This document shows, in pieces, positions 25,349 to 44,557 of a DNA stretch of 64,000 nt. The notes below the pieces were generated by a model. The model was not told where the DNA came from. It saw only the letters and a list, made by a program, of their open reading frames with translations, and did not search any database. Made by a program: the position numbers and the translations under genes. Numbering within the stretch: position 1 is the stretch's first letter; the number at the start of each line of letters is the position of its first letter. The stretch comes from Thermoanaerobaculia bacterium (GTDB lineage: Bacteria; Acidobacteriota; Thermoanaerobaculia; Multivoradales; Multivoraceae): the NCBI GenBank assembly GCA_963664405.1, contig OY761158.1, positions 4,960,001 through 5,024,000 on the forward strand, in the 5' to 3' direction.

Positions 25349-25431
25349 GCCTGTCGCGATGCACCGAATTTCACGACCGCCCGCCCCTCCGCTCAGAGGC
25401 TTATTTACTTTCGGCTATTCTTGTCGCAGTC

Positions 25432-25828
25432 CCAAGGGATGAGATGTCAAGACAAATCTTTCCTAGGCCCTCGACGACTTGATATCGAGCGCGGTACTTT
25501 CCGTTACCGAGCCGGTCCGCTACGCGCAGTTCGGTCCTCAGATCGGTTGTGTGAGCGGTGCGGCGTTGGAGATAAGAAGCGAGTTTTGGTGTCCTACTAG
25601 GTTTGTGGACCAACTTCCCAACGGGGCCTCTTAGGCCATTTCTTCTTTCGGTCCTGTGAGGGGGCCTAGTTTCCGCCTGGTGACTTCCACCGTCTTCGAT
25701 GGGGCCGATGACGACACTGGAGACTTCCCCTCGACCTTTCGATCTCGCTGCCGATCCCGCTCCCGATCCAGGCTCCTGAGCTACGTCAGCCTGCAGACGG
25801 CTCGAGCAAGGAGCGGAGAAGGGGTGGC
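25432..25828 (-). ncRNA. putative seekRNA/bridge-RNA region of the IS110 element
   Basis: ~400-bp non-coding region downstream of the transposase, as in IS1111-type elements; RNA boundaries cannot be determined by eye. Confidence 0.55.
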
Positions 25829-26863
25829 TCAGCTCATGGGTTTGTACTCGCTTTCGGTCTTCCACATCGCCAAAACGATGGCCGCGAGCTTGCGCGCCAG
25901 CGTCAGCTGCGCCAGGTTCGGGTTCGTCCCGGCTTCTAGCATGCGGTCGTAGTGGTTGCGGAAGGGGTTGGGCGCCAACATCGTGCGCGCTGAGAGCGCC
26001 GCGCCCTTGAAGACCGCTTTCAGCGGCCGGTTGGATGCCCGATTCAAACCGCGGGTCTGGATCACCGGTGCGCGCACCCAGTGCCCGGACTGCTGGACCC
26101 AGTCCGAGGAGCTCCGAGTCACGATTCCCAGACCACAGTACGACCAAAACTGCCGCTTGGTGCGAAACCGGTGCGGTGTGACCACCGTTGCGAGCAGGAT
26201 CGCGGCTCGCTTCTTGGCAATCCCCGGTGCGGTCTGCAGCGTGCTCCAGACCGGAAACTGCGCAGCCGCAGCGTGCATCTGTTTCTCTGCTTTCTCGTGG
26301 AGCTCTGCGAGCAAATCGATCTGCTCGCCCCAGATCTCCGCGCACGGACGTCCGCTCGGAGGCAGCTGTTTTACCCACTTCGAGCGATGCCGTGGTAGGT
26401 AGAGGTCGCCGTTGGGGCACGTCACCCCCCGCCGACGGTAAAGGCTGTTCAAGCGCAGCTTCGTGCGAGTCAGATCCTGGGTCAGCTTCGACTCCAGGCG
26501 CACCGCTTCGCGCAAACGAGCCCACTCCTGCCCGGGCTTGTACACCGGCGGGCCCGTCCGATTCGTCCGCAGACGCTCTGCCAGCTCCCGAGCATCGCAG
26601 GCATCGCTCTTCGGACCTCGACGCTTCTCGGGCCGACAGACCACCAGGCGAGCCACCCACGGTGTCAGAATCTCTGAGATCCACTCGCCCCACTCGCCCT
26701 CTTCCACACAGACGTGCAGCGGCCCTCGAAGCTCCCGCACCGTCTTGACCAGCTCCGACCCTTCGGTCGGCACCACCATCTGCTTGACCTTCTTGCCTCG
26801 CGGGCTCACCAACGCCAGCGTGCAGCTGTCGCGGTGGGGATCGATGCCAAGGTATCGTTCCAT
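25829..26863 (-). CDS. IS110-family transposase/recombinase
   Basis: YLGIDPH, CVEE, KSDACDARELA (DEDD RuvC-like), PGIA, SYCGL...SS, LARKLA; the SD lies in a GGTCCTCC...GGAGGACC hairpin. Confidence 0.93.
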   Translation of the reverse strand: MERYLGIDPHRDSCTLALVSPRGKKVKQMVVPTEGSELVKTVRELRGPLHVCVEEGEWGEWISEILTPWVARLVVCRPEKRRGPKSDACDARELAERLRTNRTGPPVYKPGQEWARLREAVRLESKLTQDLTRTKLRLNSLYRRRGVTCPNGDLYLPRHRSKWVKQLPPSGRPCAEIWGEQIDLLAELHEKAEKQMHAAAAQFPVWSTLQTAPGIAKKRAAILLATVVTPHRFRTKRQFWSYCGLGIVTRSSSDWVQQSGHWVRAPVIQTRGLNRASNRPLKAVFKGAALSARTMLAPNPFRNHYDRMLEAGTNPNLAQLTLARKLAAIVLAMWKTESEYKPMS

Positions 26864-27017
26864 CTTGGTCCTCCTTCCTGGGTCCAAGCCCAGGTGTTTG
26901 TGTTTCCCTAAGCTTGACGCCTTCGGGGGAGGACCACTCAAGAATATTCATCGACATCGTCCGGGGGCGCCACCCGCGCGCCATCCCATGATGTTTGCGC
27001 CAGATTTCACGACACGT

Positions 27018-29735
27018 TCACTCGGTAGGCACCAGCCGCTTCAGCTCCTCGAACCAGTTCACGACGACATGGAGCTTGGCGTTGATCTGCTCGTGTGCTC
27101 GCTTCACCACGAAGAGCTGCTGACCGTCCGAGGAGACATCATACGAGCGCCCCGGCGTATCGATGAAATCGGTTTCGAAGACGAGCTGCGCCGGGCCGAA
27201 CTCGATCTTCCGGCCCTGCCTGAACGTGTGCGCGAACCAGCGGTCACCATCGCGATAAAAGAGCTCGTCACAGCCACGGCAGACGTACGGCTCCATGCCT
27301 CCGTTGGTCGAGATCTGCTCATCGGCTTCGTCGCCTGGATAGGAGCGAACTCGAATCTCATAGCGACCCGTCCGGTTCGAACTGTGCGCAAACCATCTCC
27401 CGTCTCGAGAGAAATAGGGCGCGGCCTCGCTGGCGTCGCTACGAGAAGCCCAACGTACTGTATCGTCACCGATCTCTAGAAAGCCGAAACGGAACCTGCC
27501 GTCAAAGCTGTAGACCCCGAGCCTGTCGCCGTCCGGATGCCACGAACCCGGAGCAACGCGGGTCTCTCCCATAAACACTAGTTGCGGTTCCTCGTCGCGA
27601 TCTGCTGCCGCAATGAAGAGCCCATGCCCTTGCCCCGGCATCGCCGCCGTGAAAGCGATCTCATCGCCGTCCTGGCTCCACTTGGGCCAGCCCGCGTTAC
27701 CGGGCACGGTCAGTCTCCTCTCTGTCTTCGCCACGCGGTCCCAAATGACGATGTAGTCGTTGACATCTGCGACCTGAAGGGCGATCCGGGAACCGTCCGG
27801 GGAGAACTCGAAGTAACCGTAGACTCGCTCGGGTAGATCCAGGAACTCGACCGCTTCGGTGCCGCGGTCGATCGATGCGATCTTGCCGATCGCTGCGTCG
27901 CTTCCGGGCACATAGACCAGCGTACCTGTCGCCGAGAAGGCAACCTGAGCTTGGCCGAATAGCGATTCCATCCTCACATCTGGTACAACCGGAACTGAAG
28001 CGCCGAAGACCTCAAGGGCGGCGATGTCAAACGCTACCGCGTAGAGCGTCCCGGAGCGAGCGAACAGCAAGTGACCCGTGGGGACGTATCGCGCGTCGTA
28101 CCCGCGTTCGATCAGTAGCTTTCGCTCCAGTGTCTCTAGCGAGAGCAAATAGGTATTTGCATAGTCGTGGCCGATGCTCGTTAGGGCAGTCTGGATGAGT
28201 GCGTGCTTGCCGTCGGGAAGCACGTCGCTGAGGTATGTTTGACGGCCGCCGACTCCAAGGCTGTCGATCTCGGTGACAGTGCCGCCGGCTTCGGGAACGC
28301 TGCTCAGCGTGAACCCCTCGTCTTCAGCGAAAAAGATCGTTCCGTCAGCTACCCATGCAGCGTGTGTGGGATTCCTCGCCTTGCATACGGTTTGTGGGCG
28401 ATCTCCCTCTCTCAGCGAGACTTTCTTGACCTCTTGGTTGGTCAGGAATCCGAGCCAATCGCCGTCTGGCGAGAAGAATGCAAAGAGGGCGCCCTCCGTT
28501 CCCTCGATCGGCTCAGGTTCATCGAAGCTGTTGATGGGACGCTGGTAGAGCAGGGTGCCCGGGCCGTACTTGCCGATGTAAACGATAAGCGCCCCATCCG
28601 GAGATACGGCTACCTGCGGGCTATCAAACCCGAGAGCTGTTGTACCGAAGCCGAGAGGTGCTTCTGCCGGGAAATCGATCTCTGTGCGCACAACGACTGC
28701 CGCCGTGGGCGGCGACCTAGGCTCGGATCGTTGTCGCCACGCGGTACCAAGCCAAAGACCGGCCGCTAGGGTAGTCAGCGCGACGACGATGACCATAGCC
28801 AACGTGGAAACGGAAAACGCCCCGTGCCCGCCAGCCGGCACGGTCGCCACGACACGCTGCGACTCGGGATTGCGCAGCGCGTCGCTGATCTCGATTCGTG
28901 CGTCGGCGATATCGTGCAACCGATCCCTCGCGGGCTTTGTCAGGCAGCGCCTCAAGAGCCGAACGATCGAAGCTGGTGTCGGCGGCGGAAGTTGCTCCCA
29001 TTCAGGTTCCCGTTCAAGTATCTTTGCGAGTGTTTCGGGAGCCGTCTGCGCATCGAAACCGCGAGATGCAGTTAGCGCCTCAAAGAGGCAGACTCCGAAA
29101 GCCCAAATGTCCGCTCGCCGGTCGACCGCCTGACCTCTCGCCTGCTCGGGAGCCATGTAGGCGGCTGTGCCGAGAATCTGACCCCGTTGAGTTGCTGCAA
29201 GAGTGAGGGTCGGAGACTCGGACAAGCCGTCGTCTCCGCTCGCACTGCCTTCCACAGCCATCGCCTTGGCCAGCCCGAAATCGAGGATCTTGACCTGACC
29301 GTCTTCAGACACTTTGATGTTCGCGGGCTTCAGATCGCGGTGGATGACGCCCTTTTCGTGGGCTGCCTCCAGCCCCTCAGCGATCTGCAAGAAGACGGGC
29401 AATGCTTCGTCGACTGGCATGGCTCCTCTCTTGATGCGATCCGCTAGAGTCTCGCCCTCCACCAGTTCCATGACCAGGAAGCTGGTGTCGCCTTCCCGCT
29501 CGAAGGCGTAGAGCGTGGCTATGTTGTTGTGGTTCAACGAGGCCAGGACCCGCGCCTCGCGCTCGAAGCGAGCCAGACGTTCTGGATCGGTGGAGACCTC
29601 TTCGAGGAGGAGCTTGATCGCCACCTCGCGCCCGAGCTTCGTGTCCATGGCTCGATACACTTCTCCCATGCCTCCCGCACCAAGCGAGGAGACCACTTCG
29701 TAGTGGCCGAGCGTCGAACCAGCTTCCAGCGCCAT
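27018..29735 (-). CDS. Ser/Thr protein kinase with TM helix and PD40/TolB-like beta-propeller (kinase 1)
   Basis: LGAGGMGEVY, VAIK, HRDLKPANI, DFG, YMAPE; repeated FSPDG. Confidence 0.95.
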   Translation of the reverse strand: MALEAGSTLGHYEVVSSLGAGGMGEVYRAMDTKLGREVAIKLLLEEVSTDPERLARFEREARVLASLNHNNIATLYAFEREGDTSFLVMELVEGETLADRIKRGAMPVDEALPVFLQIAEGLEAAHEKGVIHRDLKPANIKVSEDGQVKILDFGLAKAMAVEGSASGDDGLSESPTLTLAATQRGQILGTAAYMAPEQARGQAVDRRADIWAFGVCLFEALTASRGFDAQTAPETLAKILEREPEWEQLPPPTPASIVRLLRRCLTKPARDRLHDIADARIEISDALRNPESQRVVATVPAGGHGAFSVSTLAMVIVVALTTLAAGLWLGTAWRQRSEPRSPPTAAVVVRTEIDFPAEAPLGFGTTALGFDSPQVAVSPDGALIVYIGKYGPGTLLYQRPINSFDEPEPIEGTEGALFAFFSPDGDWLGFLTNQEVKKVSLREGDRPQTVCKARNPTHAAWVADGTIFFAEDEGFTLSSVPEAGGTVTEIDSLGVGGRQTYLSDVLPDGKHALIQTALTSIGHDYANTYLLSLETLERKLLIERGYDARYVPTGHLLFARSGTLYAVAFDIAALEVFGASVPVVPDVRMESLFGQAQVAFSATGTLVYVPGSDAAIGKIASIDRGTEAVEFLDLPERVYGYFEFSPDGSRIALQVADVNDYIVIWDRVAKTERRLTVPGNAGWPKWSQDGDEIAFTAAMPGQGHGLFIAAADRDEEPQLVFMGETRVAPGSWHPDGDRLGVYSFDGRFRFGFLEIGDDTVRWASRSDASEAAPYFSRDGRWFAHSSNRTGRYEIRVRSYPGDEADEQISTNGGMEPYVCRGCDELFYRDGDRWFAHTFRQGRKIEFGPAQLVFETDFIDTPGRSYDVSSDGQQLFVVKRAHEQINAKLHVVVNWFEELKRLVPTE

Positions 29736-29925
29736 TAGATGGGCGGGATCTTATCTCTCACTGACCGGAGTCAGCTGGCAGGAGTCGCTTTCGCCGTGTC
29801 GTCCTCCGCCAGGAATCACGACACCCCCACGAAGCAGAGTACCTCCTGAGTCGGCTCCGTATGGATACCTCAGGAGTACACTCGAGTCTCCGGGAGCATT
29901 CCCGAGTCACGAAAACCAGTTCGTC

Positions 29926-30225
29926 ATGTCCCGTATAGTTCACCGGACCCTTTGGTTGACTCTCTTTCTGGCGATCGCCTTCAATTCTCCACCGGTACTG
30001 ATTCACGCTGGTCCCCTCGGGATTCTTGCTCTGTTGCCTCTCGTCGTTTGGAGCTTGGCCGCGGTGCCCTTTTCCTTCTTTCTTCCGAACCACTTCGGCA
30101 TCACTGACTTCGGGCCGGAACCAGAGACCCCGTTTGCCGTTGGGCTCGTGGTCGCTGTCTGGTGCTTTGTCGCCTGGGTCGGGGCGGTTCTCCTCGTGAG
30201 AATCAAGGAGGCTCGGGAGTCGTGA
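29926..30225 (+). CDS. small membrane protein
   Basis: 99 aa, three hydrophobic segments; GTGA overlap with the next gene. Confidence 0.6.
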   Translation: MSRIVHRTLWLTLFLAIAFNSPPVLIHAGPLGILALLPLVVWSLAAVPFSFFLPNHFGITDFGPEPETPFAVGLVVAVWCFVAWVGAVLLVRIKEARES

Positions 30226-30611
30226 AGGGATCCCTTCCTCGAGGGTTGGCACCGATGTCCTTCAGTTCCGCGTTGGGCTTTGGTATTTGGGCCGCTTCAC
30301 CGTTGATCACCGGTCGTGCAGAGCCCTGGGATGCCGAGATCACGTACTACACGCTCACCTCGGTGATCGGCGCGGCCGTGGTGGGCTACGCCTTCCCCCG
30401 CCATTGGCTGCTCGTCTTCCCCGGAGCCTGGTCAGGCCAGGTGATAGGACTGGCGGTCCTGCCGGGTCTTGACAGGGGATGGCTGCTTCTTGGGGCCATC
30501 ACGACCGGCATCGGCAGCCTACTCTTTCTTCCCGGTTCGGCCCTCGGTGCGCTCGTCGGCCGGCGGACGCGGAAGCGTCGGGGGGCGTCGAAGGAGAAGA
30601 CAGGGGACTAG
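30222..30611 (+). CDS. small membrane protein
   Basis: IWAASPLITGRAEPWDAE motif plus four hydrophobic segments. Confidence 0.7.
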   Translation: MKGSLPRGLAPMSFSSALGFGIWAASPLITGRAEPWDAEITYYTLTSVIGAAVVGYAFPRHWLLVFPGAWSGQVIGLAVLPGLDRGWLLLGAITTGIGSLLFLPGSALGALVGRRTRKRRGASKEKTGD

Positions 30612-30660
30612 CTTGCCTCGGCGGGGAAGGTGTCGTGGTTCGCCAGATTTTGCGACACTC

Positions 30661-30801
30661 TCAGTCGGCGGGCACGCCGCTAGCCAGAACGCCCGAGTCT
30701 TCCAGGTCCTTCTTCAAGTCTTCAAACTCCTTCCGGAGCTTGGCTATCAGCCCCCAGGCAATGATCCCAAATGTCATTCCAATCATTCCAAACACTTCCA
30801 T
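30661..30801 (-). CDS. 46-aa membrane/coiled-coil peptide (not in the ORF track)
   Basis: MEVFGMIGMTFGIIAWGLIAKLRKEFEDLKKDLEDSGVLASGVPAD*; SD GGAG upstream. Confidence 0.65.
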   Translation of the reverse strand: MEVFGMIGMTFGIIAWGLIAKLRKEFEDLKKDLEDSGVLASGVPAD

Positions 30802-30918
30802 TGTGCTTCTCCTTTTCCTTGGTCACAGCAGACTGTCCGGTGTAGCTGTCGGCGCTCGCCTGGCTTGCCCCGTGACTCCAGCCTGAGGGTCGGGCGTGGG
30901 GCTGAAGCGCGACGCCCA

Positions 30919-31350
30919 TCAGAGCGCAAGCGCGCCGAAGTAGACAAAGGGCGCGCTGATGGCGATGCGCACCAGTCCCAACAGGCGCCACCCGATCAGG
31001 CTCCCACTCAGGTCAGAGGGCACGAACGCCTGGATGATGGCTCGGAAAGAGCCTGGGAACAGCACCAACGCTGTTGTCATGAACACGACCAAGACCCAGC
31101 CGATGAGCGACAGGATGAACGCCAAGGTGCTCTGCCCATTCAGGTCCAAGGACCCCTGCTCTGAAGCTCCTGCCCAAATCATCGCCAACCCGAGTGGGAG
31201 CAAGAACGCCCCGAACGTTCGGGTTCGACCGTTCGTCGTGGTCGTCCTAGTGAACCAGCGCAGCACAGACGCTGGCGCGACGAAGACGAAGCCCCCGTAG
31301 CCAACACCGAGGACCCCAACCGCGATGCTCACGATTCCAAGCGCGCTCAC
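30919..31350 (-). CDS. membrane protein (DUF2065-like)
   Basis: Four hydrophobic segments; SD AGGAGG. Confidence 0.7.
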   Translation of the reverse strand: MSALGIVSIAVGVLGVGYGGFVFVAPASVLRWFTRTTTTNGRTRTFGAFLLPLGLAMIWAGASEQGSLDLNGQSTLAFILSLIGWVLVVFMTTALVLFPGSFRAIIQAFVPSDLSGSLIGWRLLGLVRIAISAPFVYFGALAL

Positions 31351-31543
31351 GAGCCCTCCTTAGAGACTTCCTTGGGGGTGGCTGAACAAGCTACCCGAGT
31401 GGCTGCTTTCAGCGACATCGAATGGACAGCATTCTAGCTGGCGGTTCAGGAGCCTGATAGCTATTCAGCTCTTCCTGTCGTCCTTCGCCAGGAAGTGCGA
31501 CAGCCTCAGCCGCCACTCGGGAGAGCGGCGTCTTGAGGCGACC

Positions 31544-33835: not shown

Positions 33836-33991
33836 GAGTTGAATAGAAGTCTACCGCCCACGGGCGCTATGGCCGAGCACGAGGATCACACCCGTGTCGC
33901 AGAGCACCCACAAAGACGACATCGCGCCGATTTTGGGGTCTATCGTCCTTCAGCTATGCCTGTCGTGGTCCGCCACATATTGCGACATCTC

Positions 33992-36682: not shown

Positions 36683-36780
36683 GCGAGTGGCGAGAGTCTA
36701 CCGCTCGACTGCCTTCAACGACTTATAGGCCGATCGCGATACTTGTCGCGGTCCGCCACCAAAGGCGACAAGGCCCGCGC

Positions 36781-39459
36781 TCACGAGCCCCCCTCGGAGA
36801 ACATCTCGAGCACCTTGGCCCGCCAGTTCTGGACCAGGATCACTTTTTCCTCCTGGTCCTCAGCGGCCTCGACCATCAGGAAGCGGCCGTCCGGATGCAC
36901 ACCGTAGTTGATGATGCCTAGGTTCGGACCCCTTCGGAACCGATCTTCGAACAGGGTCTCAGGCCGCCCGATGACCAACTCACTGCCCTTCTTCTCGATC
37001 GGGATGGTCATCATGTGGGTCGGGCCGCGGTAGAAGATCTCGTCTCCCGAAGAGGACCATGCCGCTTCCTGGCCGCCTTCGAAGGTGAGCTGGCGCGGCT
37101 CCCCTGGGCCCGGGAAGGGGATCAGCCACAGCTGCGACATAGCGTCGACGGGGTCGAATCCGGCGTAGGCGATCCAGTCCCCATCGGGGTGGAAGCCTCC
37201 CGAGCGAACGAAGACACTGTCGTCGACCACAGAGCGTACCTCGCCGCTACTGCGGTCGAGGGCGACAAACCCCTCCTCGAAGAAGTGGTAGAGCAACACC
37301 CAGCGCCCGTCGGCGGAGACGCCGAAATAGGATTGAGCCTGCTCGGAGGGCAGTAGCCTCTGCGCCGGGGCGCTACGATCGGCCGGCTGGAAAAACACCT
37401 GTGCGTAGTCGTCGACGCGATTCGCCACGAAGAAGATCTCTTTGCCGTCTGGCGGGATCTCTGTCGCGACCGAAGTGGAGCCCGTCTGAGCCGGTCGGCT
37501 CCACGAGCCGGTGGCGAGGTCGAGGGCCCATTGCTCGTTGCCGTCGCCGGCCGAGTTTCGCGAGTGGACCGAGATCCTGTGACCATCGAGGGATGGCCTG
37601 GGAACGGCGAAGGCCTTGATCTCAGGAGCCACCGGCTCGACCTCGCCGCCGCCGCGGTTCACCCACACCAGCCGAGACTGGTTGCTCACCTGCCCTCTCA
37701 CGTAGACGAGATCACCGGACTTTTGAACGTCGAAGCGACCAATGTCGACCGGAATCCCGGGCACGCGAGCTACCTCGGTTTCGACTTGTCGAGGCGGAGC
37801 CGCGAGCTCTCCGGTCACCGAGTCGATGGGAGCCGCCCACAGCGCTCCGCTTCGATAGAAGGCCATCAACCCCGGTTCGACGTAGGTGGCCGCGGCGCCT
37901 TGCGTGAGCACCCGCCCCTCGCCGGTCCCCAGATCCACGGCGACGAGGTCGGCCCAGAACCCTTCTCTTCGATCCTGCGGCAGAGTCGCCAGCAGAGTTT
38001 GACCTCCGGGGAGGAGAGCGGTTGCCATGCCATCACCGATACGCTCGGGCTCGCCGCCGGTAACCGCGACTCGCCAGATCTCGGCTTCGTTTGGGTTAGT
38101 GCGCGATGGTACATGAGTGTAGTAAATGGAGCCGTCCTCTCCCCACGGCCCTGGACTAAAGACGTTCTCCGCGATCGTCGTGGCTCCTCCTCCCTCGACA
38201 GCTACCGTTTTCAGCTTGCCACTGCTGTCAACGAAGACCAGATTCCCGCCGTCGGGGGAGAAGAAGGCAAATCCTCCAGCTCCCTCAGTCCCCGAGATCG
38301 GTTGCGGAAACAGCGAATCGAGGGAGCGACGAGCCAGGATAGATCCGCCACCGGCCTGCTGTTGCGGGAATACCAGAGTACGCCCGTCAGGCGAGATCGT
38401 CGCGAGTCCTTCGTCGGCCGCGATGTCGAGGGTCGTCACGGTCCAGACCTCCGCGCCGCCCTCGACCGCCGGCACATTCGAGCCGCGAGGAAATGCGAAG
38501 CCGATTACCATCCCGACCAGGAGAACGAGGCCCCCGGCCAGGGCGGCGACTCGCGGACGCAGGGCCCGGTCGGCGGTGCCTCCTGTAGGCGCCGCCGTCT
38601 CGGTCCCCTGGTCGAGGCCGCCCAGCTCCAGCGCCACATCGCGCGCCGACTGCCAACGCCGATCGGGATCCTTGTCGAGACAGCGCTCGATCACCCAGTC
38701 GAAGCGGGCCGGCGCGAGCGGCTGGAGCTCCGACAGAGCGCGCACCCGACCGGTCATGATCGACGCGATCAAGCTGGCCTGAGAGGTCCCCTCGAACGGC
38801 CTTGCCCCGCTGGCCATCTCGTAAAGCACGGCGCCAAGGCCCCAGATGTCGCTGCGAGTGTCTGCCTCCTTACCTTCGAGCTGCTCGGGCGCCATGTATT
38901 GCAGCGTGCCGAGAATCGAGCCTTCGCTGGTCAGTGGCTGGGTGATGGTCGGCGTCTGCGTGCTCCCGCTAAGGGCACCGACCTGGACTCCCTTGGCGAG
39001 GCCGAAGTCGAGCACCTTGGCTCCCTCGCGAGTCAACATCACATTGCCGGGCTTGAGATCGCGGTGGACCACTCCCTGGCGATGAGCGGCGTCGATGGCC
39101 TCGGCGATCTGGGATCCGATCGTCGCCACCTCATCCAGCGGCAGGGCGCCGCGTCGAAGCCGGTCCTCGAGGGTCTCTCCCTCCAGGTACTCCATGACCA
39201 GGTAATCGACACCGTCCTCGCTGCCGATGTCGTAGAGCGTGCAGACATGGGGATGGGTCAGCTGCGAGATGGTCTTCGCTTCGCGCTCCAGCCGCTGACG
39301 GTAGAGCGTGTCCTGCCCGAGCTCCTCAGGTAGCACCTTGATGGCGACATCCCGCTCCAGGCGTGTGTCACGACCCAGGTACACCTCTCCCATGCCGCCC
39401 TTGCCGCGCAGCTCGACGATCTCGTAGGGACCGAGGCGGGAGCCTGGTTCTAGAGCCAT
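36781..39459 (-). CDS. Ser/Thr kinase with TM helix and PD40 propeller (kinase 4)
   Basis: Start MALEPGSRLGPYEI at 39459; kinase motifs; propeller repeats. Confidence 0.95.
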   Translation of the reverse strand: MALEPGSRLGPYEIVELRGKGGMGEVYLGRDTRLERDVAIKVLPEELGQDTLYRQRLEREAKTISQLTHPHVCTLYDIGSEDGVDYLVMEYLEGETLEDRLRRGALPLDEVATIGSQIAEAIDAAHRQGVVHRDLKPGNVMLTREGAKVLDFGLAKGVQVGALSGSTQTPTITQPLTSEGSILGTLQYMAPEQLEGKEADTRSDIWGLGAVLYEMASGARPFEGTSQASLIASIMTGRVRALSELQPLAPARFDWVIERCLDKDPDRRWQSARDVALELGGLDQGTETAAPTGGTADRALRPRVAALAGGLVLLVGMVIGFAFPRGSNVPAVEGGAEVWTVTTLDIAADEGLATISPDGRTLVFPQQQAGGGSILARRSLDSLFPQPISGTEGAGGFAFFSPDGGNLVFVDSSGKLKTVAVEGGGATTIAENVFSPGPWGEDGSIYYTHVPSRTNPNEAEIWRVAVTGGEPERIGDGMATALLPGGQTLLATLPQDRREGFWADLVAVDLGTGEGRVLTQGAAATYVEPGLMAFYRSGALWAAPIDSVTGELAAPPRQVETEVARVPGIPVDIGRFDVQKSGDLVYVRGQVSNQSRLVWVNRGGGEVEPVAPEIKAFAVPRPSLDGHRISVHSRNSAGDGNEQWALDLATGSWSRPAQTGSTSVATEIPPDGKEIFFVANRVDDYAQVFFQPADRSAPAQRLLPSEQAQSYFGVSADGRWVLLYHFFEEGFVALDRSSGEVRSVVDDSVFVRSGGFHPDGDWIAYAGFDPVDAMSQLWLIPFPGPGEPRQLTFEGGQEAAWSSSGDEIFYRGPTHMMTIPIEKKGSELVIGRPETLFEDRFRRGPNLGIINYGVHPDGRFLMVEAAEDQEEKVILVQNWRAKVLEMFSEGGS

Positions 39460-39614
39460 GAGTTGGCGACATCTTACAGTCGCCCGGTGGATCAGCGGCT
39501 CAGAGCTCGAATTGTGTTGTCGCACCTCACCATATTTCACGACAGCCCCTCTCCTCAGAGGCTTATTCGTTTTCGGCTATACGTGTCGTGGTGCGCCCCA
39601 AAGTGCGACATCTT

Positions 39615-42303
39615 TCAGTCTGTGGGCACGAGGCGCTTCAGCTCCTCGAACCAGTTCTGGACCAGGACGACGTCATTGCGCTCGCCCCCCTCGGTCGTCT
39701 CCAGTGGTTTGACCATCAGGAACCTCTCGCCGTCCGGGTGGATGTCGTACATGCGACCGACGGAGACGGCATAGTTTCCCGTGAAGATCACTTCAGGTTT
39801 CCCGGGCTCGAACGAGGGCTCGGTCCTGACCGGCACCGCCATCAACCGATCGCCGGCACGATAGAAGATCTCGCTGCCGTCCGGCGACCACAGCGGTTCG
39901 GTGCCGCCTCCGGCCGAGATCGGAAAACGGCCACCGGCTTCTACGTCGGGAAACGGCCTCACATAGATTCGGTCTTCGTCCGCCGATTCGTCCGACTGGT
40001 AGACCAACCACCGGCCATCGGGTGAGATTTCTCCATTCAGCTCACGGAACTCCGAGGCTAGAAGCGGTTTCGGCGATCCTTCGCCTTCCAGCGACAGCAC
40101 TCCCAGATCGAACCCTGACGTCACTCCGACGCGGTAAAGCAGGGCCTTGCCGTCTGGGGAGATCGACGACGGATATAGATACTCCGCGAACTCGATAAGG
40201 AGCTTCACTGTTCCCGTTCCGTCAAACGCTCGCTGGTAGAACCCCAGGGTCCCGTCACGGTCGGAGACGAACACCACTTCCCGGCTGTCACGAGTCCAGA
40301 CCGGATACACGTCTATTGCCGGATCAGCGGTCAGCCGGTCCAGAGGAGACTCCCGCGTGAGGTCCCAGATCCACACGTCCTGGTCTTCATCGCGGGAAGA
40401 GACCGCCACCCGCTGTCCATCCGGAGAGATTCGGGGATAGATGTAGAACCGGGGTGGGGCCGAGAGAGCCGCCTCTCGTCCGTCGCGTCCCACCCAGACA
40501 AGGGTCCGTTGCGCCCCTCCCCCCATGCCACCGGTGACGTACACCAAGGACCCGTCCTGCGAGAAGTCGAAGTTCACAACACCAAAGGTCTTGGTGTTGA
40601 CGCCTTCTAGGACAGGGACCGGATCTCCCCGCACTTCCAGACTCCCCGCATCGAAGGCCACCGCATGAAGCGTACCGTTCAGCCCATAGACCAGGTGCCC
40701 GGTGGGCACGTACCGGGCACCGGCACCTCCAAAGACCAGGTCCTTCCGCTCCCCGGTGGTGAGAGATTGAGCCACGATCTGCGCGTCGTCGACGTTCGAG
40801 CTCGTAAAGACCGCAAAGAGAACGGCTTCGCCACCCGGTAGAACCTCGGGAAAACGATAGGAAAGCTCTCCTTTATCGGGATCTAGCGCGACCAGCCGCT
40901 CCAGTTCACCGCCTCCCCCCGACACCCGATAGAGCCCCTCGTTGAGGAAGCCAAGGACAATGGTGTCGTCCGCGCCCCAGCTCGCGCCGAGAAGAATAGA
41001 GGGTAGTTCGCACAAAGTCACCGTTGGCCCCCCGAGAATGGGGACTTTCTTAAGAGTCCCGCCGGACTCGAAGGCGACCCAGGCCCCGTCGGGCGAGAGG
41101 AAGGGAGACTCAGCGTCCTCCGTTCCTCGCAGCTCGGAGCCAACGATGCGGTCCACCCAGCGAACATAGAGAGAGCCTTCGCTCTTGTAGACCACCACCC
41201 GACCATTGCGTGCCATCGCCAGATCGCGAGCAATGGGAAGAGAACCCGTCATCGGCGCGCTGGGAGCGGCGCTCAGCACCGCACGAACGACGGGGCGCTC
41301 GGGTGGTGCGGGCTTCAGGGTCCAGACGGCGATGCCAGCGATCACCGCGCCGGCAGCGAGGGTGGCGAGGGCCAAAGGTACAGGACTGCGCTCTTCCGCC
41401 GCGGCCGCGCCGGGCGTCGGCTCATCGCTCTCGGGAGCCTCGATGACGGTTTCGATTTCCATCAGGGCATCACCGATGTCTCGCAGCCGTTGTCGTGGAT
41501 CCTTGCGTAAACACCGCTCAAGCAATTCGCGTAGTCTTCGAGGAACGCTTGCGGGGAGCGGGTCCCAGCTCGGCACATCGCGCAACACAGCGCCTACTGT
41601 CTCCATCGCATCTTCGCCCTCGAACAAGCGTTGTCCAACAAGGGCCTCGTAGAGACAAACACCGAAGGCCCAGACGTCGGTGCGCTTGTCGACTGCCTTC
41701 CCCCGAGCCTGCTCGGGCGACATGTAGGCAGCAGTCCCGAGGATTTCACCGCGCTGTGTCGCAGCTAGCGTCAGCGTTGGCGACATCGACATCGAGGCGT
41801 CACCCGACTCGCCGACATCTCCGACCATTGCCTTGGCCAACCCGAAGTCAAGGATCTTGACGTTGCCGTCGTCGGTGACCTTGATGTTGGCGGGCTTGAG
41901 GTCGCGATGAATGACGCCCTTGTCGTGAGCAGCTTCTAGCCCTTCCGCGATCTGGAGGAACAGCGGCAGAGCCTCCTCGACCGCAATAGGCCCTCGACTG
42001 ATCCTCTCCGCAAGGGTCTCGCCCTCGACCAGTTCCATGACCAGGAAATTGGTGTCTCCGTCCTTCTCGAAGCCGTGGAGCGTAGCGATGTTGTTGTGGT
42101 TCAGAGAAGCAAGGACGCGGGCTTCCCGCTCGAACCTCGCGAGCCGTTCTGGATCGGTCGACACCTCCTCCAACAGCAGCTTGATCGCGACCTCACGACC
42201 GAGCTTCGTGTCCTTCGCCCGGTACACCTCTCCCATGCCTCCCGCACCGAGGGAAGAGACCACTTCGTAGTGGCCGAGCTTTGTGCCTGCTTTCTAATGC
42301 CAT
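39615..42303 (-). CDS. Ser/Thr kinase with TM helix and PD40 propeller (kinase 5); extra base near codon 4-5
   Basis: ATG GCA TTA GAA A GCA GGC has an extra A at 42291-42293 compared with the paralogs' MALEAGTKLGHY; the rest is intact. Confidence 0.9.
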
Positions 42304-42494
42304 CGACTGAGCGACATTCTACCGGCAGCCGCCAAGGGCCGATTTCGAGGTGTCGCGATCCACCAGATTCTGCGACACTGACGATGTTGTCCATTGCACC
42401 TTCCACTAGAAAAGGTGCCAGTATCAACCCCGCCGAGGGCGTGGGCTCCAGGAGCCTGAATTCGGCTAGCCCGGCTAAATAGGAGATCTGGGAC

Positions 42495-44189
42495 ATGAAT
42501 GCACGGAGAATCCCGATACTCGTCTTGATGCTGACGCTGTTTCTGGGCGCCTGCGGAGCGTTCGAGCCGGATGAGGCAGTGCCAGTGGAGACGGAAGAGA
42601 GGCCCAACTTTCTTCTAGTCGTTGCCGACGACATGGGATACACGGACACAGGCCCCTTCGGCGGTGAGATCGAGACCCCGAATCTCGACCGGCTCGCAGC
42701 CTCCGGGGTCCGTTTCGCGGACTTCCACGTATCCATGTCCTGCTCGCCGACGCGCGCGATGATGATGTCTGGCATGGACAACCACCTGGCCGGTCTCGGC
42801 AACATGGGGGAGCTCATCACGCCCAATCAGCGCGGCAAACCGGGTTACGAGGGTTACCTCAGCCGCGATGTCATCAGCCTGCCTGAGGCGCTCGGGAGTG
42901 GCGGGTACCACACCTACATGGCCGGAAAGTGGCACCTGGGACACGAGCCGGATCAGCGTCCCTTCGCACGGGGCTTCGAGCGCTCGCTGGCGTTGATGTA
43001 CGGTGGCGCGAGCCATTGGAATGACAGGCATGGGCTCATTGCCGCGCAGGATCCGGTCATCTACACGCGCAATGGCGAGAAGCTCGAACAACTGCCCGAG
43101 GATTTCTACTCGAGCAAAAACTACGCCGACTTCCTCATGGAGTCGATTCGAGAGAACCACGGCGACGGCAAGCCCTTTCTTGCCTACCTCGCCTTCACAG
43201 CGCCTCATGACCCTCTGCACGTGCCCGAGCCTTGGCTCAGCAAGTACCGAGGGCGGTACGACGAGGGCTACGAAGCTCTGAAGGCAAGTAGGGCTGAAGG
43301 CGCGGCCCGGGCCGGCGTCGTGCGGGCCGGCGCCCCGCTGCCCCAACGCCACTCGATGACTCCGGCCTGGGACACCTTGAGCCCCGAGGAGAGAACCCGG
43401 CAGTCCCGGATGATGGAGGTCTATGCGGGGATGGTCGACAACATGGACCACCATCTCGGCCGAGTGCTGGATTTCCTCGACGACATCGGCGAGCTCGACA
43501 ACACCGTCATCATTTTCTTTTCGGACAACGGGCCCAATCCGTGGGACAGCGAGGATTATCCCGGCAATCGGGACGGGAACTTCATGGACCTTTTCGACAA
43601 CAGTCTCGACAACCTCGGCAAGCCCGGCTCGAACGTCGCCTACGGAAGCGGCTGGGCTCAGGCGAGCGCCGGTCCCTACAGTTACTTCAAGATGACGGTC
43701 GCCGAGGGAGGCACACGGAGCCCTCTGATTGTCGCTGGACCGCAAGTGAACAACGGCGGACGGATCAACGATACCCCCGTAACCGCCATGGATGTGATGC
43801 CGACCCTCCTAGACATAGCGGGCATCGAACACCCCGAGACGTTCAACGGCAGACGGGTCAAGCCGATGATGGGCCGCTCGATGAAAGGCGTGGCAGCCGG
43901 CACCGCAGAGCGCGTGCACCCGGAGGACACACTCTTCGGCCACCAGGCCTTCGAGGAGCACGAGCTTTCCGGCGAGATGCTGGGCGGCAAGTTCGTGCGC
44001 CGCGGCGATTGGAAGGCGCTCTTCGTGAGCCGGCCGTATGGCCCGAACGAGTGGCAGCTCTTTGATCTCGCCGCCGACCCCGGCGAAACCGATGACCTGG
44101 CGGGTGAGCATCGGGAGCTGTTGGAGGAACTGACTGCGGGCTGGGACCAGTACGCGAACGACGTGGGGGTTGTCCCACCGGAGGGCTAA
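42495..44189 (+). CDS. AtsA-like arylsulfatase, lipoprotein
   Basis: Lipobox LGAC, RPNFLLVVADDMG, CSPTR, GKWHLG, FSDNG. Confidence 0.93.
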   Translation: MNARRIPILVLMLTLFLGACGAFEPDEAVPVETEERPNFLLVVADDMGYTDTGPFGGEIETPNLDRLAASGVRFADFHVSMSCSPTRAMMMSGMDNHLAGLGNMGELITPNQRGKPGYEGYLSRDVISLPEALGSGGYHTYMAGKWHLGHEPDQRPFARGFERSLALMYGGASHWNDRHGLIAAQDPVIYTRNGEKLEQLPEDFYSSKNYADFLMESIRENHGDGKPFLAYLAFTAPHDPLHVPEPWLSKYRGRYDEGYEALKASRAEGAARAGVVRAGAPLPQRHSMTPAWDTLSPEERTRQSRMMEVYAGMVDNMDHHLGRVLDFLDDIGELDNTVIIFFSDNGPNPWDSEDYPGNRDGNFMDLFDNSLDNLGKPGSNVAYGSGWAQASAGPYSYFKMTVAEGGTRSPLIVAGPQVNNGGRINDTPVTAMDVMPTLLDIAGIEHPETFNGRRVKPMMGRSMKGVAAGTAERVHPEDTLFGHQAFEEHELSGEMLGGKFVRRGDWKALFVSRPYGPNEWQLFDLAADPGETDDLAGEHRELLEELTAGWDQYANDVGVVPPEG

Positions 44190-44557
44190 GGCTTGCTCCG
44201 CCTCCGCCGTCGAAACGGGCTCGGTCCGAATTTGAAGGGCTAAGGGAGGTGCCACCCTTCGCCTTCCCATGGCACCTTCCACAGCGAACTATGCAAGTGG
44301 ACTTCTGGCTTGCGATGTCGCAGAGCACCACAGATCGCGACACGCCTGCTCCCAGACGCCCGTAGACGTTGAGCTCTCGTAGTGGCGTGGGGTGAAAAGG
44401 CGACATCTTGTCGCAATTTTTGCTTAGGTGCGACACCAGACTTCTCTAAGCCACTGATTACAAGCTAGATCCGTGCAGGCCCTAAGCCTGTAAGAGCTCG
44501 CGGATCTGGTATGTTCACGATCATCAATCCGATTGCGATCCGTTGAGGAGGGACCCA

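What the first reader, a model, noticed from the sequence alone, without database searches (positions are those of the whole stretch)
25352..44435. Integron-like gene-cassette array delimited by an unfamiliar 27-bp palindromic site (TGTCG-N17-CGACA)
Seen: each boundary between gene modules in the island carries a 27-bp site with inverted TGTCG/CGACA ends and an asymmetric core starting C[AG]CC at position 11, all in one orientation. Examples: TGTCGTGGTT-CGCCAGA-TTTTGCGACA (30631), TGTCGTCCTC-CGCCAGG-AATCACGACA (29797), TGTCGTGGTC-CGCCACA-TATTGCGACA (33961), TGTCGCGGTC-CGCCACC-AAAGGCGACA (36744), TGTCGCGATC-CACCAGA-TTCTGCGACA (42351). Several sit 3-10 bp from a stop codon (25348, 27018, 30661, 33992, 36781, 39615). 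Some lie between convergent gene ends (25352, 30631), where an operator makes little sense. I saw no copy outside the island. Known: a 10-7-10 layout with a directional spacer fits tyrosine-recombinase core sites, and co-oriented sites give excision/integration, but the sequence matches neither attC nor XerC/D dif. Inference: a cassette system that stacks and shuffles kinase and other genes using a recombinase encoded elsewhere.
Basis: partly seen in the sequence, partly recalled or inferred. Interest (0 to 1): 0.92.

Follow-up and report, generated by a model that had tools for sequence, protein, structure and literature searches.

The report
Gene-cassette arrays joined at 27-bp sites
The repeated 27-base sites are real and most likely mark the joints of a previously undescribed gene-cassette system that has stacked and copied kinase and other genes in nine places of this bacterial chromosome.

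Summary
The window has 11 exact TGTCG-N17-CGACA sites (0.14 expected) plus one degenerate and one split copy, all at 25352-44435. The genome has 109 such sites, none in a reversed-sequence control; 96 lie in nine arrays, co-oriented within each array.

Read along the genes, the site is TGTCGY-N7-TGG(C/T)G-N4-R-CGACA. There is no stem covariation, so it looks like a double-stranded protein site. One class (core TGGCG) often lies 1-15 bp after a stop codon, whatever the gene family.

The left half travels with the upstream gene and the right half with the downstream DNA. Three cassettes are 98-99.8% identical between arrays that have unrelated neighbours, and their homology starts and stops inside positions 11-17 of the bounding sites. 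Cargo is mixed: about 30 Ser/Thr kinases plus unrelated enzymes and transporters.

Best reading (0.62): core sites of a site-specific, probably tyrosine, recombinase that delimit mobile cassettes. It works like an integron or the Acinetobacter dif modules but belongs to neither.

The recombinase is not identified. A 179-aa catalytic-domain-only tyrosine recombinase, itself a cassette, is a weak candidate. No circles or excision joints could be tested. Older paralogues give a more mixed breakpoint picture.

The parts
25352..25378 (-). Degenerate B-class site (GGTCG...CGACA on the gene strand) at the tail of the array, 4 bp from the stop of the convergent gene 24545-25348
   Evidence: (PWM 24.8)
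25422..25431 (-). Right 10 bases (positions 18-27) of an A-class site split by the IS110-family element
   Evidence: sequence GACTGCGACA follows the IS end directly, then the usual 39-43 nt spacer and the site at 25352
25432..26997 (-). IS110-family insertion sequence (transposase ORF 25829-26941) inserted between positions 17 and 18 of an A site
   Evidence: Pfam PF01548+PF02371, NCBIfam IS110 RNA-guided transposase, junctions; a copy in array A3 has the same left junction
26998..27014 (-). Left 17 bases (arm plus core TGGCG) of the split A site, 3 bp after the kinase stop at 27018
27018..29735 (-). Cassette gene: Ser/Thr kinase with PD40 beta-propeller repeats (905 aa)
   Evidence: Pfam; codon score
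29797..29823 (-). A-class site (core TGGCG)
   Evidence: PWM 34.3
29824..30630 (-). Small cassette without a confident gene; 98.4-99.1% identical to genome 767727-768557 in array A3, with homology ending in the cores of both bounding sites
30631..30657 (-). A-class site
   Evidence: PWM 36.3
30658..31475 (-). Cassette with a 143-aa ORF (30919-31350, no family) plus about 257 bp that looks like a kinase 3' remnant; 99.5-99.6% identical over about 560-580 bp to genome 599467-600055 in array A2
31476..31502 (-). A-class site
   Evidence: PWM 33.1
31544..33835 (-). Cassette gene: Ser/Thr kinase with TPR repeats (763 aa)
   Evidence: Pfam
33895..33921 (-). B-class site (core GGGTG), 60 bp upstream of the start at 33835
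33961..33987 (-). A-class site, 4 bp after the stop at 33992; 66 bp start-to-start from the B site
33992..36682 (-). Cassette gene: Ser/Thr kinase-PD40 (896 aa)
   Evidence: Pfam
36744..36770 (-). A-class site, 10 bp after the stop at 36781; its left half and upstream flank recur at genome 31969 and 611583 with other right halves
36781..39540 (-). Cassette gene: Ser/Thr kinase-PD40. The longest ORF is given; it overlaps the B site, so the true start is probably about 60-65 nt downstream of that site
   Evidence: Pfam; head alignment
39518..39544 (-). B-class site
39584..39610 (-). A-class site, 4 bp after the stop at 39615
39615..42263 (-). Cassette gene: Ser/Thr kinase-PD40 (882 aa)
   Evidence: Pfam
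42351..42377 (-). B-class site between the divergent kinase and sulfatase genes
42495..44189 (+). Cassette gene in inverse orientation: sulfatase (564 aa). A 564-aa ORF of the same length at genome 771143-772837 lies co-oriented in array A3; its family was not tested
   Evidence: Pfam
44316..44342 (-). B-class site of the array head
44395..44405 (-). Half-site TGTCGCCTTTT, 3 nt from the head site; conserved in the heads of all nine arrays
44409..44435 (+). Head ('C') site: same arms, inverted relative to the array, core without GGYG; 93 bp start-to-start from the first B site, as in six other arrays

Best explanation
The 27-bp elements are double-stranded core sites of a site-specific recombinase, most likely a tyrosine recombinase. 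Two TGTCGY/RCGACA arms would bind a dimer, and a directional central region of 6-7 bp (positions 11/12-17, nTGGCG or nGGTG) would be where strands are exchanged. The sites delimit gene cassettes, each consisting of the right part of one site, the cargo (often with its own short promoter-like region) and the left part of the next site.

Cassettes have been inserted, copied and re-sorted among nine co-oriented chromosomal arrays, of which the window holds one. Each array starts with a conserved head: an inverted variant site, a half-site and a B site.

Shown: the sites, their classes and orientation, the mosaic joints, the cassette-precise duplicates and the mixed cargo. Inferred: that a recombinase makes the joints, and that exchange occurs in the central region. 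Unknown: which enzyme acts. A 179-aa catalytic-domain-only tyrosine recombinase, carried as a cassette at the tail of another array, is my weak first candidate (about 0.3).
For: 1. Non-random sites. The window has 11 against 0.14 expected. The genome has 109 against 0 in the control. 96 of 109 lie in nine arrays, and each array has one orientation.

2. No hairpin selection. Watson-Crick pairs at positions 6/22 to 10/18 are 53, 35, 25, 49 and 18, against 54.9, 37.0, 24.9, 48.8 and 20.0 expected if the positions are independent.

3. Mosaic halves. There are 64 left alleles and 40 right alleles in 101 combinations among the 109 sites. Pairs with the same left allele share the upstream flank in 26% of 113 pairs, against 1.0% of all 5,886 pairs. 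Pairs with the same right allele share the downstream flank in 39% of 235 pairs against 5.3%, and the upstream flank in 1.7%.

4. Pairs alike on one side only. Of 12 pairs alike only upstream, the left block is identical in 11 and the right block differs in 11. Of 54 pairs alike only downstream, the right block is identical in 33, and in 30 of those the left block differs by 2 or more.

5. Near-identical cassettes in different arrays with unrelated neighbours. They are 3.7-3.8 kb at 99.7-99.8%, about 806-860 bp at 98.4-99.1%, and about 560-580 bp at 99.5-99.6%. At all 5 boundaries that lie at sites, identity starts at position 11-13 of the upstream site or stops at position 17 of the downstream site.

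6. A sites follow stop codons. 22 of 53 lie within 15 bp and 6 more within 40 bp of a co-oriented stop, across unrelated gene families. For B sites the figure is 1 of 43.

7. Gene orientation. 54 genes are co-oriented with their array and 12 are opposite.

8. Mixed cargo. It includes kinases, methyltransferase, MFS, ornithine cyclodeaminase, ATP-grasp, Na/H exchanger, DUF3604, TonB receptor, amidohydrolase, PLD and sulfatase.

9. Other genomes of the phylum. Isolated sites or A-39-B pairs flank non-orthologous genes and transposases. MAG contigs break at the sites.

10. Insertion sequences target the sites. An IS110-family element sits inside the site. An IS91-like element sits at one fixed place of the A-B spacer in 3 places of this genome, and its end sequence is at the same place in G460.

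11. Candidate enzyme. All 3 loci of the small recombinase in this genome lie within about 350 bp of a site. Its only close homologue among 299 genomes of the order (G008, 53-75% identity, frame-shifted) lies about 340 bp from a site.
Against: No excision circle, deletion joint or strain with another cassette order was seen. The runs that hold the locus are kept as contigs only, and their joints fall in kinase paralogue repeats.

In the systematic count over older paralogues of 80-95% identity, only 27 of 85 upstream and 4 of 22 downstream boundaries map to the core. 49 and 10 map between the core and the cassette interior, 6 and 5 run on, and 3 and 3 end at the outer edge. So either exchange is not confined to the core, or the variable blocks turn over, or gene conversion among kinase genes blurs the record.

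About half of the cassettes are one paralogous kinase family, which tandem duplication could also expand.

No recombinase gene sits at most arrays. The candidate is absent (E<=1e-20) from 400 sampled genomes of the phylum, among them G460, G380, G427 and G668, which carry a few good sites. Its plasmid relatives sit beside inverted repeats of other sequence.

A -10-like TAGAAT/TAAGAT lies 30-47 nt downstream of many sites, so a regulatory role is not excluded.
Confidence: 0.62

Rival explanations
1. The sites are operators or activator sites of one dimeric transcription factor that controls a large regulon of kinase and other genes. The cassette-like mosaic is a by-product of duplication.
For: The arms are palindromic and show no stem covariation. 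B sites lie 60-90 bp upstream of starts. A -10-like TAGAAT/TAAGAT lies 30-47 nt downstream of B sites, or of A where B is missing. In many other bacteria, TGTCGA...TCGACA palindromes of the same length lie upstream of SoFic-like Fic genes, which carry a winged-helix domain. So this kind of palindrome can be an operator.
Against: A sites lie 1-15 bp after stop codons, and some sit inside apparent operons 41 nt before the next start with only a ribosome-binding site between them. The distance from site to -10 differs by about 14 nt between promoter types, which is not one helical phase. The genes next to sites in other genomes are not orthologous and include transposases. Duplication with random end points cannot place about 40 joints inside a 5-7 bp core or produce cassette-precise copies. 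No SoFic-type domain is found in this genome.
Confidence: 0.15
2. The sites, with the 39-bp spacer, are a REP/BIME- or MITE-like intergenic repeat. The arrays grew by homologous recombination and gene conversion between repeated intergenic units of about 140 bp.
For: The A-39-B-leader unit is conserved over about 140 bp. The second half of the spacer holds a hairpin of variable sequence. IS110-family elements are known to target REPs (recalled). In one search, 59 of 107 boundaries of older paralogues fall beside the core rather than in it, as gene conversion tracts ending at the edge of homology would.
Against: 96 of 109 sites lie in nine arrays rather than being spread over 6.8 Mb. The 27-mer itself has no conserved stem beyond 5 bp. 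At A-only joints the partners share nothing but the 27-mer, with about 17 fixed bases, which is too little for homologous exchange; yet the joints are precise. A MITE would keep its left half whatever gene lies upstream, but left halves follow the upstream gene.
Confidence: 0.1
3. The sites are primarily the targets of the resident IS110-family RNA-guided recombinase or the IS91-like element, and those enzymes caused the rearrangements.
For: IS110-family copies sit 17 bp inside the site, counted from one arm, at two full junction pairs, and a third copy shares the same left junction. IS91-like copies sit at one fixed spacer position in 3 places of this genome, and the IS end sequence is at the same position in G460. 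Both enzyme families can join DNA at specific sequences (recalled).
Against: There are only 3 IS110 copies of this type, against about 100 joints. RNA-guided recognition needs defined sequence, but the site halves vary. An orthologue of the IS91-linked recombinase occurs in G002, which has no convincing site (1 chance-like pattern match), and none is found in G008, G117, G460, G380, G427 or G668. The IS91-like insertion point is 22 nt outside the site.
Confidence: 0.05

Closest known systems
Integrons (IntI integrase, attI, attC-bounded cassettes; sedentary chromosomal integrons and integrase-less attC clusters)
   Same: Arrays of co-oriented, mostly single-gene cassettes of unrelated function. 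The recombination site begins within a few bases of the stop codon. Each cassette carries parts of two sites. Arrays exist without an adjacent integrase. IS110-family elements insert into the sites; the IS1111-attC group does so in integrons (recalled).
   Different: The site is a 27-bp double-stranded-type site without selected hairpin pairing, not a folded 57-141-nt attC. No integron integrase scores over the family cut-off, and the nearest recombinases lack the IntI-specific segment. Many cassettes bring their own promoter-like region. There are two site classes in tandem, 66 bp apart, and a head with an inverted variant site.
Acinetobacter dif modules (pdif sites, XerC/XerD); seen as search listing and abstracts only: PMC13141974, PMC6449649, PMC10132070
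   Same: Short (28-bp) simple recombination sites bound discrete modules of varied cargo. The modules are shuffled between replicons. A dedicated insertion-sequence family targets the sites.
   Different: The sites here do not resemble the candidate chromosomal dif of this genome. They are co-oriented rather than alternating. They lie in chromosomal arrays of up to 22 sites, and there is no evidence that Xer acts on them.
Small tyrosine DNA invertases (FimB/FimE size class)
   Same: The candidate enzyme has 179 aa, the catalytic domain only, and weak matches to the 'tyrosine-type DNA invertase' models over nearly their whole length. Two of four plasmid relatives that were examined lie beside inverted repeats, 36 nt and 60 nt long.
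   Different: The scores are far below the family cut-offs. Here the sites are direct repeats, which would give excision and integration rather than inversion. No link between this enzyme and the sites has been shown.
REP/BIME elements
   Same: Short palindromic-ended intergenic repeats, often just after stop codons, that IS110-family elements target (recalled).
   Different: They are clustered in nine arrays rather than spread genome-wide, have no conserved stem, and their mosaic halves follow the flanking genes.

Membership tests
Integron | Integron integrase (IntI) with its characteristic extra segment | tested here: not met
   19 matches to TIGR02249 in the genome, none over the cut-off (best 122 bits against 265). 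The best hits match in two pieces that skip model positions 181-235.
Integron | attC sites: imperfect palindromes of 57-141 nt that fold as single strands | tested here: not met
   The sites are 27 bp. Pairing beyond the 5-bp arms is at chance level. No Rfam family matched, though an attC model may not be in that library.
Integron | Co-oriented cassettes, each ending in a recombination site next to the stop codon | tested here: met
   54 co-oriented genes against 12 opposite. 28 of 53 A sites lie within 40 bp after a co-oriented stop.
Integron | attI with promoter Pc next to intI at the array head | tested here: inconclusive
   A conserved head exists, but there is no integrase beside it. Only a 56-aa recombinase remnant lies at one head. 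Promoters were not mapped.
Xer-dif modules / IMEX | Sites resemble the host dif (11-6-11, ATAA-N6-TTATG) | tested here: not met
   the one dif-like sequence near the GC-skew extreme (genome 6765435) is unlike the 27-bp sites.
Xer-dif modules / IMEX | Modules flanked by sites in alternating orientation | tested here: not met
   all sites of an array share one orientation.
Simple tyrosine-recombinase core site | Two inverted binding arms around an asymmetric 6-8 bp exchange region that recombining partners share | tested here: met
   One search shows arms TGTCGY/RCGACA and a fixed GGYG centre. Searches show the joints of recent copies mapping to positions 11-17. This is by sequence only.
Simple tyrosine-recombinase core site | Binding and cleavage by a cognate recombinase | not testable with these tools
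   Needs biochemistry or in vivo assays.
Transcription-factor regulon | Sites upstream of orthologous target genes across genomes | tested here: not met
   in G460, G380, G427 and G668 the sites flank a kinase, a hydrolase, MFS, amidohydrolases, a CAAX protease and two transposases.
Transcription-factor regulon | Fixed, helically phased distance to the core promoter | tested here: inconclusive
   -10-like hexamers lie at offsets of about 30 and about 42-44 nt. Transcription starts are not known.
REP/BIME | Hundreds of copies spread over intergenic regions; stable stem-loop | tested here: not met
Phage_integrase (PF00589) tyrosine recombinases, for the candidate enzyme | Catalytic domain with the conserved R, H-x-x-R, H and Y residues | tested here: met
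   Pfam E=3.4e-29. The alignment to XerA shows the matching blocks ...TG(M)RVSEL..., HVLRHTF, LGH and the tyrosine in TTEIY. The family length of 175 aa is conserved in most of the 120 listed relatives at 57-92% identity.

The most novel reading that the evidence does not exclude
A chromosomal gene-capture platform that is distinct from integrons and from Xer-dif modules. Short double-stranded 27-bp sites of two compatibility classes (cores TGGCG and GGTG) are recombined by a dedicated minimal tyrosine recombinase, about 175 aa and catalytic domain only, that itself travels as a cassette. The system builds arrays from a conserved head, has multiplied sensor Ser/Thr kinases to about 30 copies in one genome, and leaves single cassettes scattered through the phylum.
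Probability: 0.35. Interest if true: 0.88.

Novelty: new variant of a known kind. Interest (0 to 1): 0.78.

Why it matters
Integrons are the textbook case of a system that captures and stacks genes, and the Acinetobacter dif modules are a second, recently recognised case. A third system, with its own site and in a soil- or sediment-type lineage with large kinase families, would show that cassette platforms arose more than once. It would also offer a mechanism for lineage-specific expansion and re-sorting of signalling genes. The 27-bp site with a simple architecture might additionally be useful as a recombination tool. The claim can be tested directly with a two-site substrate and a handful of candidate enzymes.

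Tried and rejected
RNA or single-strand structure. Rfam scans at permissive thresholds of window 24-46 kb and of four head loci gave nothing. No pairing beyond the arms is selected. Rejected.

Integron. No IntI scores over the cut-off. Membership rejected.

Xer/dif. A dif-like site at genome 6765435 differs from the sites. Rejected as the likely enzyme-site pair, though not tested.

tRNA-linked island. ARAGORN found no tRNA in the window or in 12 array loci. A sequence upstream of one head that looked tRNA-like to me was not called as one.

Flanking duplication. The two cyclase genes on either side of the window array are only 26% identical, so they are not a target duplication.

Reads. One search listed 9 runs. 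I laid 4 of them (X4, X5, X9, X6). All are kept as contigs, at a depth of about 5-10 on unique parts. The listed joints lie inside kinase paralogue repeats with sides of 21-38 letters, and none lies at a site. Contigs end at or near sites, as expected for repeats. This tests neither excision nor its absence.

Faulty scans. The patterns (A-spacer-B with cores) and were mistyped with six instead of five free bases between the core and CGACA, which makes a 28-bp site. One search found contig L132 only through a 28-bp variant copy.

Generic scan. One search, with a generic pair pattern, mostly hit a different element upstream of Fic genes. No SoFic-type domain is found in this genome.

Viral contigs. 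One scan with the small recombinase gave a single hit at 33% identity. Uninformative.

IS91-linked recombinase as the enzyme. Its orthologue (56%) is in G002, which has no convincing site, and none was found in G008, G117, G460, G380, G427 or G668. I judge it unlikely.

Likeness of plasmid repeats to the site. Two plasmid inverted repeats partly resemble the site halves. This rests on 2 AT-rich cases judged by eye, so I give it no weight.

Literature. One search looked for IS91-linked tyrosine recombinases. One search looked for integrons in Acidobacteria. One search searched four spellings of the motif and found 0 papers. One search combined Acidobacteria, kinases, tandem and site-specific recombination. 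None turned up a description of these sites. The library lacks most subscription journals, and supplements were closed. Of 10.1101/542381 I saw two passages only. The dif-module papers I saw as listing and abstracts only.

Unpublished genomes G148 and G347 are counted in the tallies as genomes with at most 2 pattern matches. No other claim rests on them.

Full report
1. THE OBSERVATION

The pattern TGTCG-N17-CGACA occurs 11 times in the window, against 0.14 expected; the largest count in 100 shuffles is 1. Spacer 17 is special: every other spacer from 5 to 29 gives 0 or 1 hit. A one-mismatch copy lies at 25352. I built a position-weight matrix from the oriented genomic sites. It finds 12 window sites, all between 25352 and 44435.

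The window is G000:C1:4960001-5024000 in a genome of 6.78 Mb on one contig. That genome holds 118 exact matches, against 9 for the reversed control pattern. At matrix score 20 or more it holds 109 sites, against 0 in the reversed genome. Of these, 96 lie in nine arrays and 13 elsewhere, and within each array all sites point the same way. The window array is therefore one of nine.

2. ANATOMY OF THE SITE

Read on the strand of the array's genes, the site is TGTCG-Y-N7-(T)GG(C/T)G-N4-R-CGACA. Positions 1-5 and 23-27 are nearly invariant. Position 6 is C or T and position 22 is G or A. Positions 9-10 are A or T. Positions 14, 15 and 17 are G.

Position 16 splits the sites into class A (C, 65 sites) and class B (T, 44 sites). 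Pairing between the two halves beyond the 5-bp arms is exactly what independence predicts: 53 against 54.9, 35 against 37.0, 25 against 24.9, 49 against 48.8, and 18 against 20.0. This fits a protein site on duplex DNA. It does not fit a folded attC-like strand or an RNA stem. Rfam gave nothing.

3. ANATOMY OF THE ARRAYS

I called genes by a codon-usage score trained on this genome. Within the arrays, 54 confident genes run with the array and 12 against it, three of the latter being insertion-sequence ORFs.

A sites follow stop codons. Of 53 A sites, 22 lie within 15 bp and 6 more within 40 bp of a co-oriented stop, whatever the gene family. For B sites the figure is 1 of 43. Where both classes occur, B starts 65-67 bp after A (57 bp once). 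The spacer has the consensus nGnATAGC..GAA..C.GATAAGCC followed by a short hairpin of variable sequence. After many B sites comes a conserved leader with a -10-like TAAGAT or TAGAAT, 12-18 nt before the start codon.

Each array begins with a conserved head. It consists of a variant site that reads as an inverted copy without the GGYG core, then 3 nt, then a half-site TGTCGCCTTT, then about 50 nt, then a B site. In seven arrays the exact spacing of 93 bp from the head site to the first B site is seen.

4. CARGO

In the window the array holds five Ser/Thr kinases with PD40 or TPR domains, a sulfatase in inverse orientation, two small cassettes and an insertion sequence. Across the arrays about 30 ORFs belong to the kinase family. 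The other cassettes encode:
- methyltransferases
- an MFS transporter
- ornithine cyclodeaminase
- an ATP-grasp enzyme
- DUF1326 and DUF5916 proteins
- a Na/H exchanger
- a zincin
- DUF3604 proteins
- a TonB-dependent receptor
- an amidohydrolase
- a PLD-like protein

5. THE JOINTS ARE IN THE SITES

The variable block left of the core (positions 6-12) has 64 alleles. The block right of it (positions 18-22) has 40. They occur in 101 combinations among the 109 sites.

Each half follows its own flank:
- Same left allele (113 pairs): the upstream 30 nt are at least 80% alike in 26%, against 1.0% of all 5,886 pairs.
- Same right allele (235 pairs): the downstream 30 nt are alike in 39%, against 5.3%. 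The upstream 30 nt are alike in only 1.7%.

Pairs alike on one side only show the same thing:
- Twelve pairs have upstream 60 nt nearly identical and downstream 60 nt unrelated. The left block is identical in 11 of them and the right block differs in 11.
- Fifty-four pairs are alike only downstream. The right block is identical in 33, and in 30 of those the left block has two or more mismatches. In 18 of the 54 the right block also has two or more mismatches.

One example: genome sites 28161, 614402 and 759557 share the gene end and TGTCGCATTTGG(T/G)GGCG, and then continue with AAGGACGACA, GACCACGACA and CACTGCGACA, each with its own downstream DNA.

6. CASSETTE-PRECISE RECENT COPIES

(a) Genome 28161-31969 in array A1 and 755749-759557 in array A3 are 99.7-99.8% identical over 3.7-3.8 kb.
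(b) Window 29797-30631 and genome 767727-768557 (A3) are 98.4-99.1% identical over about 806-860 bp.
(c) Window 30631-31476 and genome 599467-600055 (A2) are 99.5-99.6% identical over about 560-580 bp.

In all three the neighbouring cassettes are unrelated. At the upstream bounding sites the sequences differ at positions 6-10, 6-11 or 7-12 and are identical from position 11, 12 or 13 on. At the downstream bounding sites of (a) and (b) they are identical up to position 17 and differ from position 18. The exchanged unit thus runs from the centre of one site to the centre of the next, and the exchange region is positions 11/12-17.

At A-only joints the partners share nothing but the 27-mer. That argues against homologous recombination.

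7. RESULTS THAT CUT THE OTHER WAY

I classified every boundary of every pair of inter-site intervals whose interiors are at least 80% alike.
- Of 85 upstream boundaries, 27 map to the core, 49 map to the right of it (right block unlike although the interior is alike), 6 run on and 3 end at the outer edge.
- Of 22 downstream boundaries, 4 map to the core, 10 to the left of it, 5 run on and 3 end at the outer edge.

Most of these pairs are kinase paralogues at 80-93% identity. Gene conversion among them could end at the edge of the site. Alternatively the variable blocks may turn over, or exchange may not be limited to the core. These pairs are not independent events.

Direct evidence of movement is also lacking. 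The runs that hold the locus are kept as contigs, at low depth, and show no joint at a site.

8. DISTRIBUTION

Among 299 other genomes of the same order, none has more than 6 pattern matches, and most matches look like chance. Two are exceptions. G117 has 4 good sites, including an A-B pair 66 bp apart, on contigs of 2.9-5.9 kb that end near sites. G008 also has 4 good sites.

Among 400 genomes sampled from the phylum, none has more than 3. G460 has an A-B pair 66 bp apart plus a third site, and G380, G427 and G668 each have one good site. The genes beside these sites are not orthologous. They are a kinase, a hydrolase, an MFS transporter, amidohydrolases, a CAAX protease and two transposases.

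A 1.3-kb metagenome contig (L132) carries three 27-bp sites and one 28-bp variant in the same layout.

Three of my four scans of the large collections were faulty; the fourth used a generic pair pattern (see Tried and rejected). The wider distribution is therefore unknown.

9. WHICH ENZYME?

No integron integrase is present. A dif-like site near the skew extreme differs from the sites. The genome gives 25 tyrosine-recombinase matches and 12 serine-recombinase matches.

The 179-aa tyrosine recombinase stands out. Its gene (genome 5456062-5456601) lies as a cassette between an A site and a B-like site at the tail of array A8. A truncated second copy starts at the same distance after a site at the tail of A3. 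A 46-aa remnant lies beside the head of A4. It consists of the catalytic domain only. That is its native length: most of the 120 listed relatives, at 57-92% identity, have 175 aa.

Its distribution is narrow. Among 299 genomes of the order, the only homologue above 50% identity is a frame-shifted copy in G008, about 340 bp from a site. None at E<=1e-20 was found in the 400 sampled genomes of the phylum. That sample includes G460, G380, G427 and G668, which do have a few sites.

Plasmid relatives at 52-56% identity sit beside inverted repeats of other sequence in 2 of the 4 plasmids examined, so elsewhere the family may act as invertases. I rate this enzyme a weak candidate, about 0.3.

The IS91-linked recombinase does not track the sites. 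A small serine recombinase lies 160 bp from the last site of array A9, next to an IS21. It was not followed further.

10. COMPARISON AND VERDICT

Functionally the system resembles integrons and the Acinetobacter dif modules: short sites bound single-gene modules of varied function, which are stacked and re-sorted, and insertion sequences parasitise the sites. It fails the defining tests of both families (see Membership tests).

I found no description of the motif in four literature searches, within the limits of that library.

I therefore file it as a new variant of a known kind: site-specific-recombination cassette arrays. Confidence is 0.62 that the sites are recombination sites that delimit mobile cassettes. 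The enzyme is open, and direct proof of movement is still to be obtained.

Noticed in passing
window 25432-26997; also genome 778.97-780.3 kb and 5459.5-5461.1 kb: An IS110-family (RNA-guided, DEDD) insertion sequence sits inside the 27-bp sites, 17 bp in from one TGTCG arm, in either orientation. The window copy splits an A site cleanly into 17 + 10 bases.
   Followed up: partly
genome 34.9-37.4 kb, 41.4-43.9 kb, 597.0-599.4 kb, 615.2-617.5 kb, 887-888 kb; L169 (G460): An IS91-family element carries a 286-aa XerC/IntI-like tyrosine recombinase upstream of the Y2 transposase. It is present in 5 near-identical copies. Three insertions lie at the same position of the A-B spacer (after GATAAG, at the foot of the spacer hairpin), and the same IS end sits at the same position in a genome of another family.
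   Followed up: partly
window 42390-42420 and 44266-44290; genome 6514874 and 6516571: A second motif, CATKGCACCTTCCAC followed by TAGAAAAGGTGC (an inverted repeat GCACCTT/AAGGTGC), flanks the inverted sulfatase cassette of the window and a PLD-like cassette in array A9. In both it lies 44-48 bp from the bounding sites.
   Followed up: no
L013-L128, e.g. L041 3385-3482, L075 354-450: In many Proteobacteria and a few Acidobacteria, 70-bp-periodic arrays lie directly upstream of SoFic-like Fic genes with a winged-helix C-terminal domain. The arrays alternate 27-bp TGTCGAW..WTCGACA palindromes with short TGTCGAT-N3-5-ATCGACA palindromes. This was checked by Pfam in 2 loci only. It looks like an autoregulation operator and seems unrelated to the cassette sites.
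   Followed up: partly
genome 6765435 (outside the window): A candidate chromosomal dif site, CGTCCGATAA-GATAGA-TTATGTCAAC, lies near the cumulative GC-skew extreme at 6.74 Mb.
   Followed up: no
window 23316-24248 and 44543-45628: Putative cyclase (PF04199) genes lie on both sides of the array. They are only 26% identical, so they are distant paralogues and not a duplication made by insertion.
   Followed up: yes
window, 12-18 nt upstream of kinase starts (e.g. downstream of 42351, 39518, 29797): -10-like hexamers TAGAAT/TAAGAT lie so close to the start codons that the transcripts would be nearly leaderless. No -35 consensus was evident.
   Followed up: no
L152 529-772 (Piscirickettsia salmonis plasmid), L153 3731-4587 (Candidatus Megaira plasmid): Relatives of the 179-aa recombinase lie next to a 172-bp segment flanked by 36-nt inverted repeats, or inside a 737-bp segment flanked by 60-nt inverted repeats. 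These are likely invertible DNA switches.
   Followed up: partly
genome 6506941-6510104 (array A9 tail): An IS21 pair (IstA/IstB) and a small serine recombinase (229 aa) lie between an odd head-like site at 6506590 and the last array site at 6510264.
   Followed up: no
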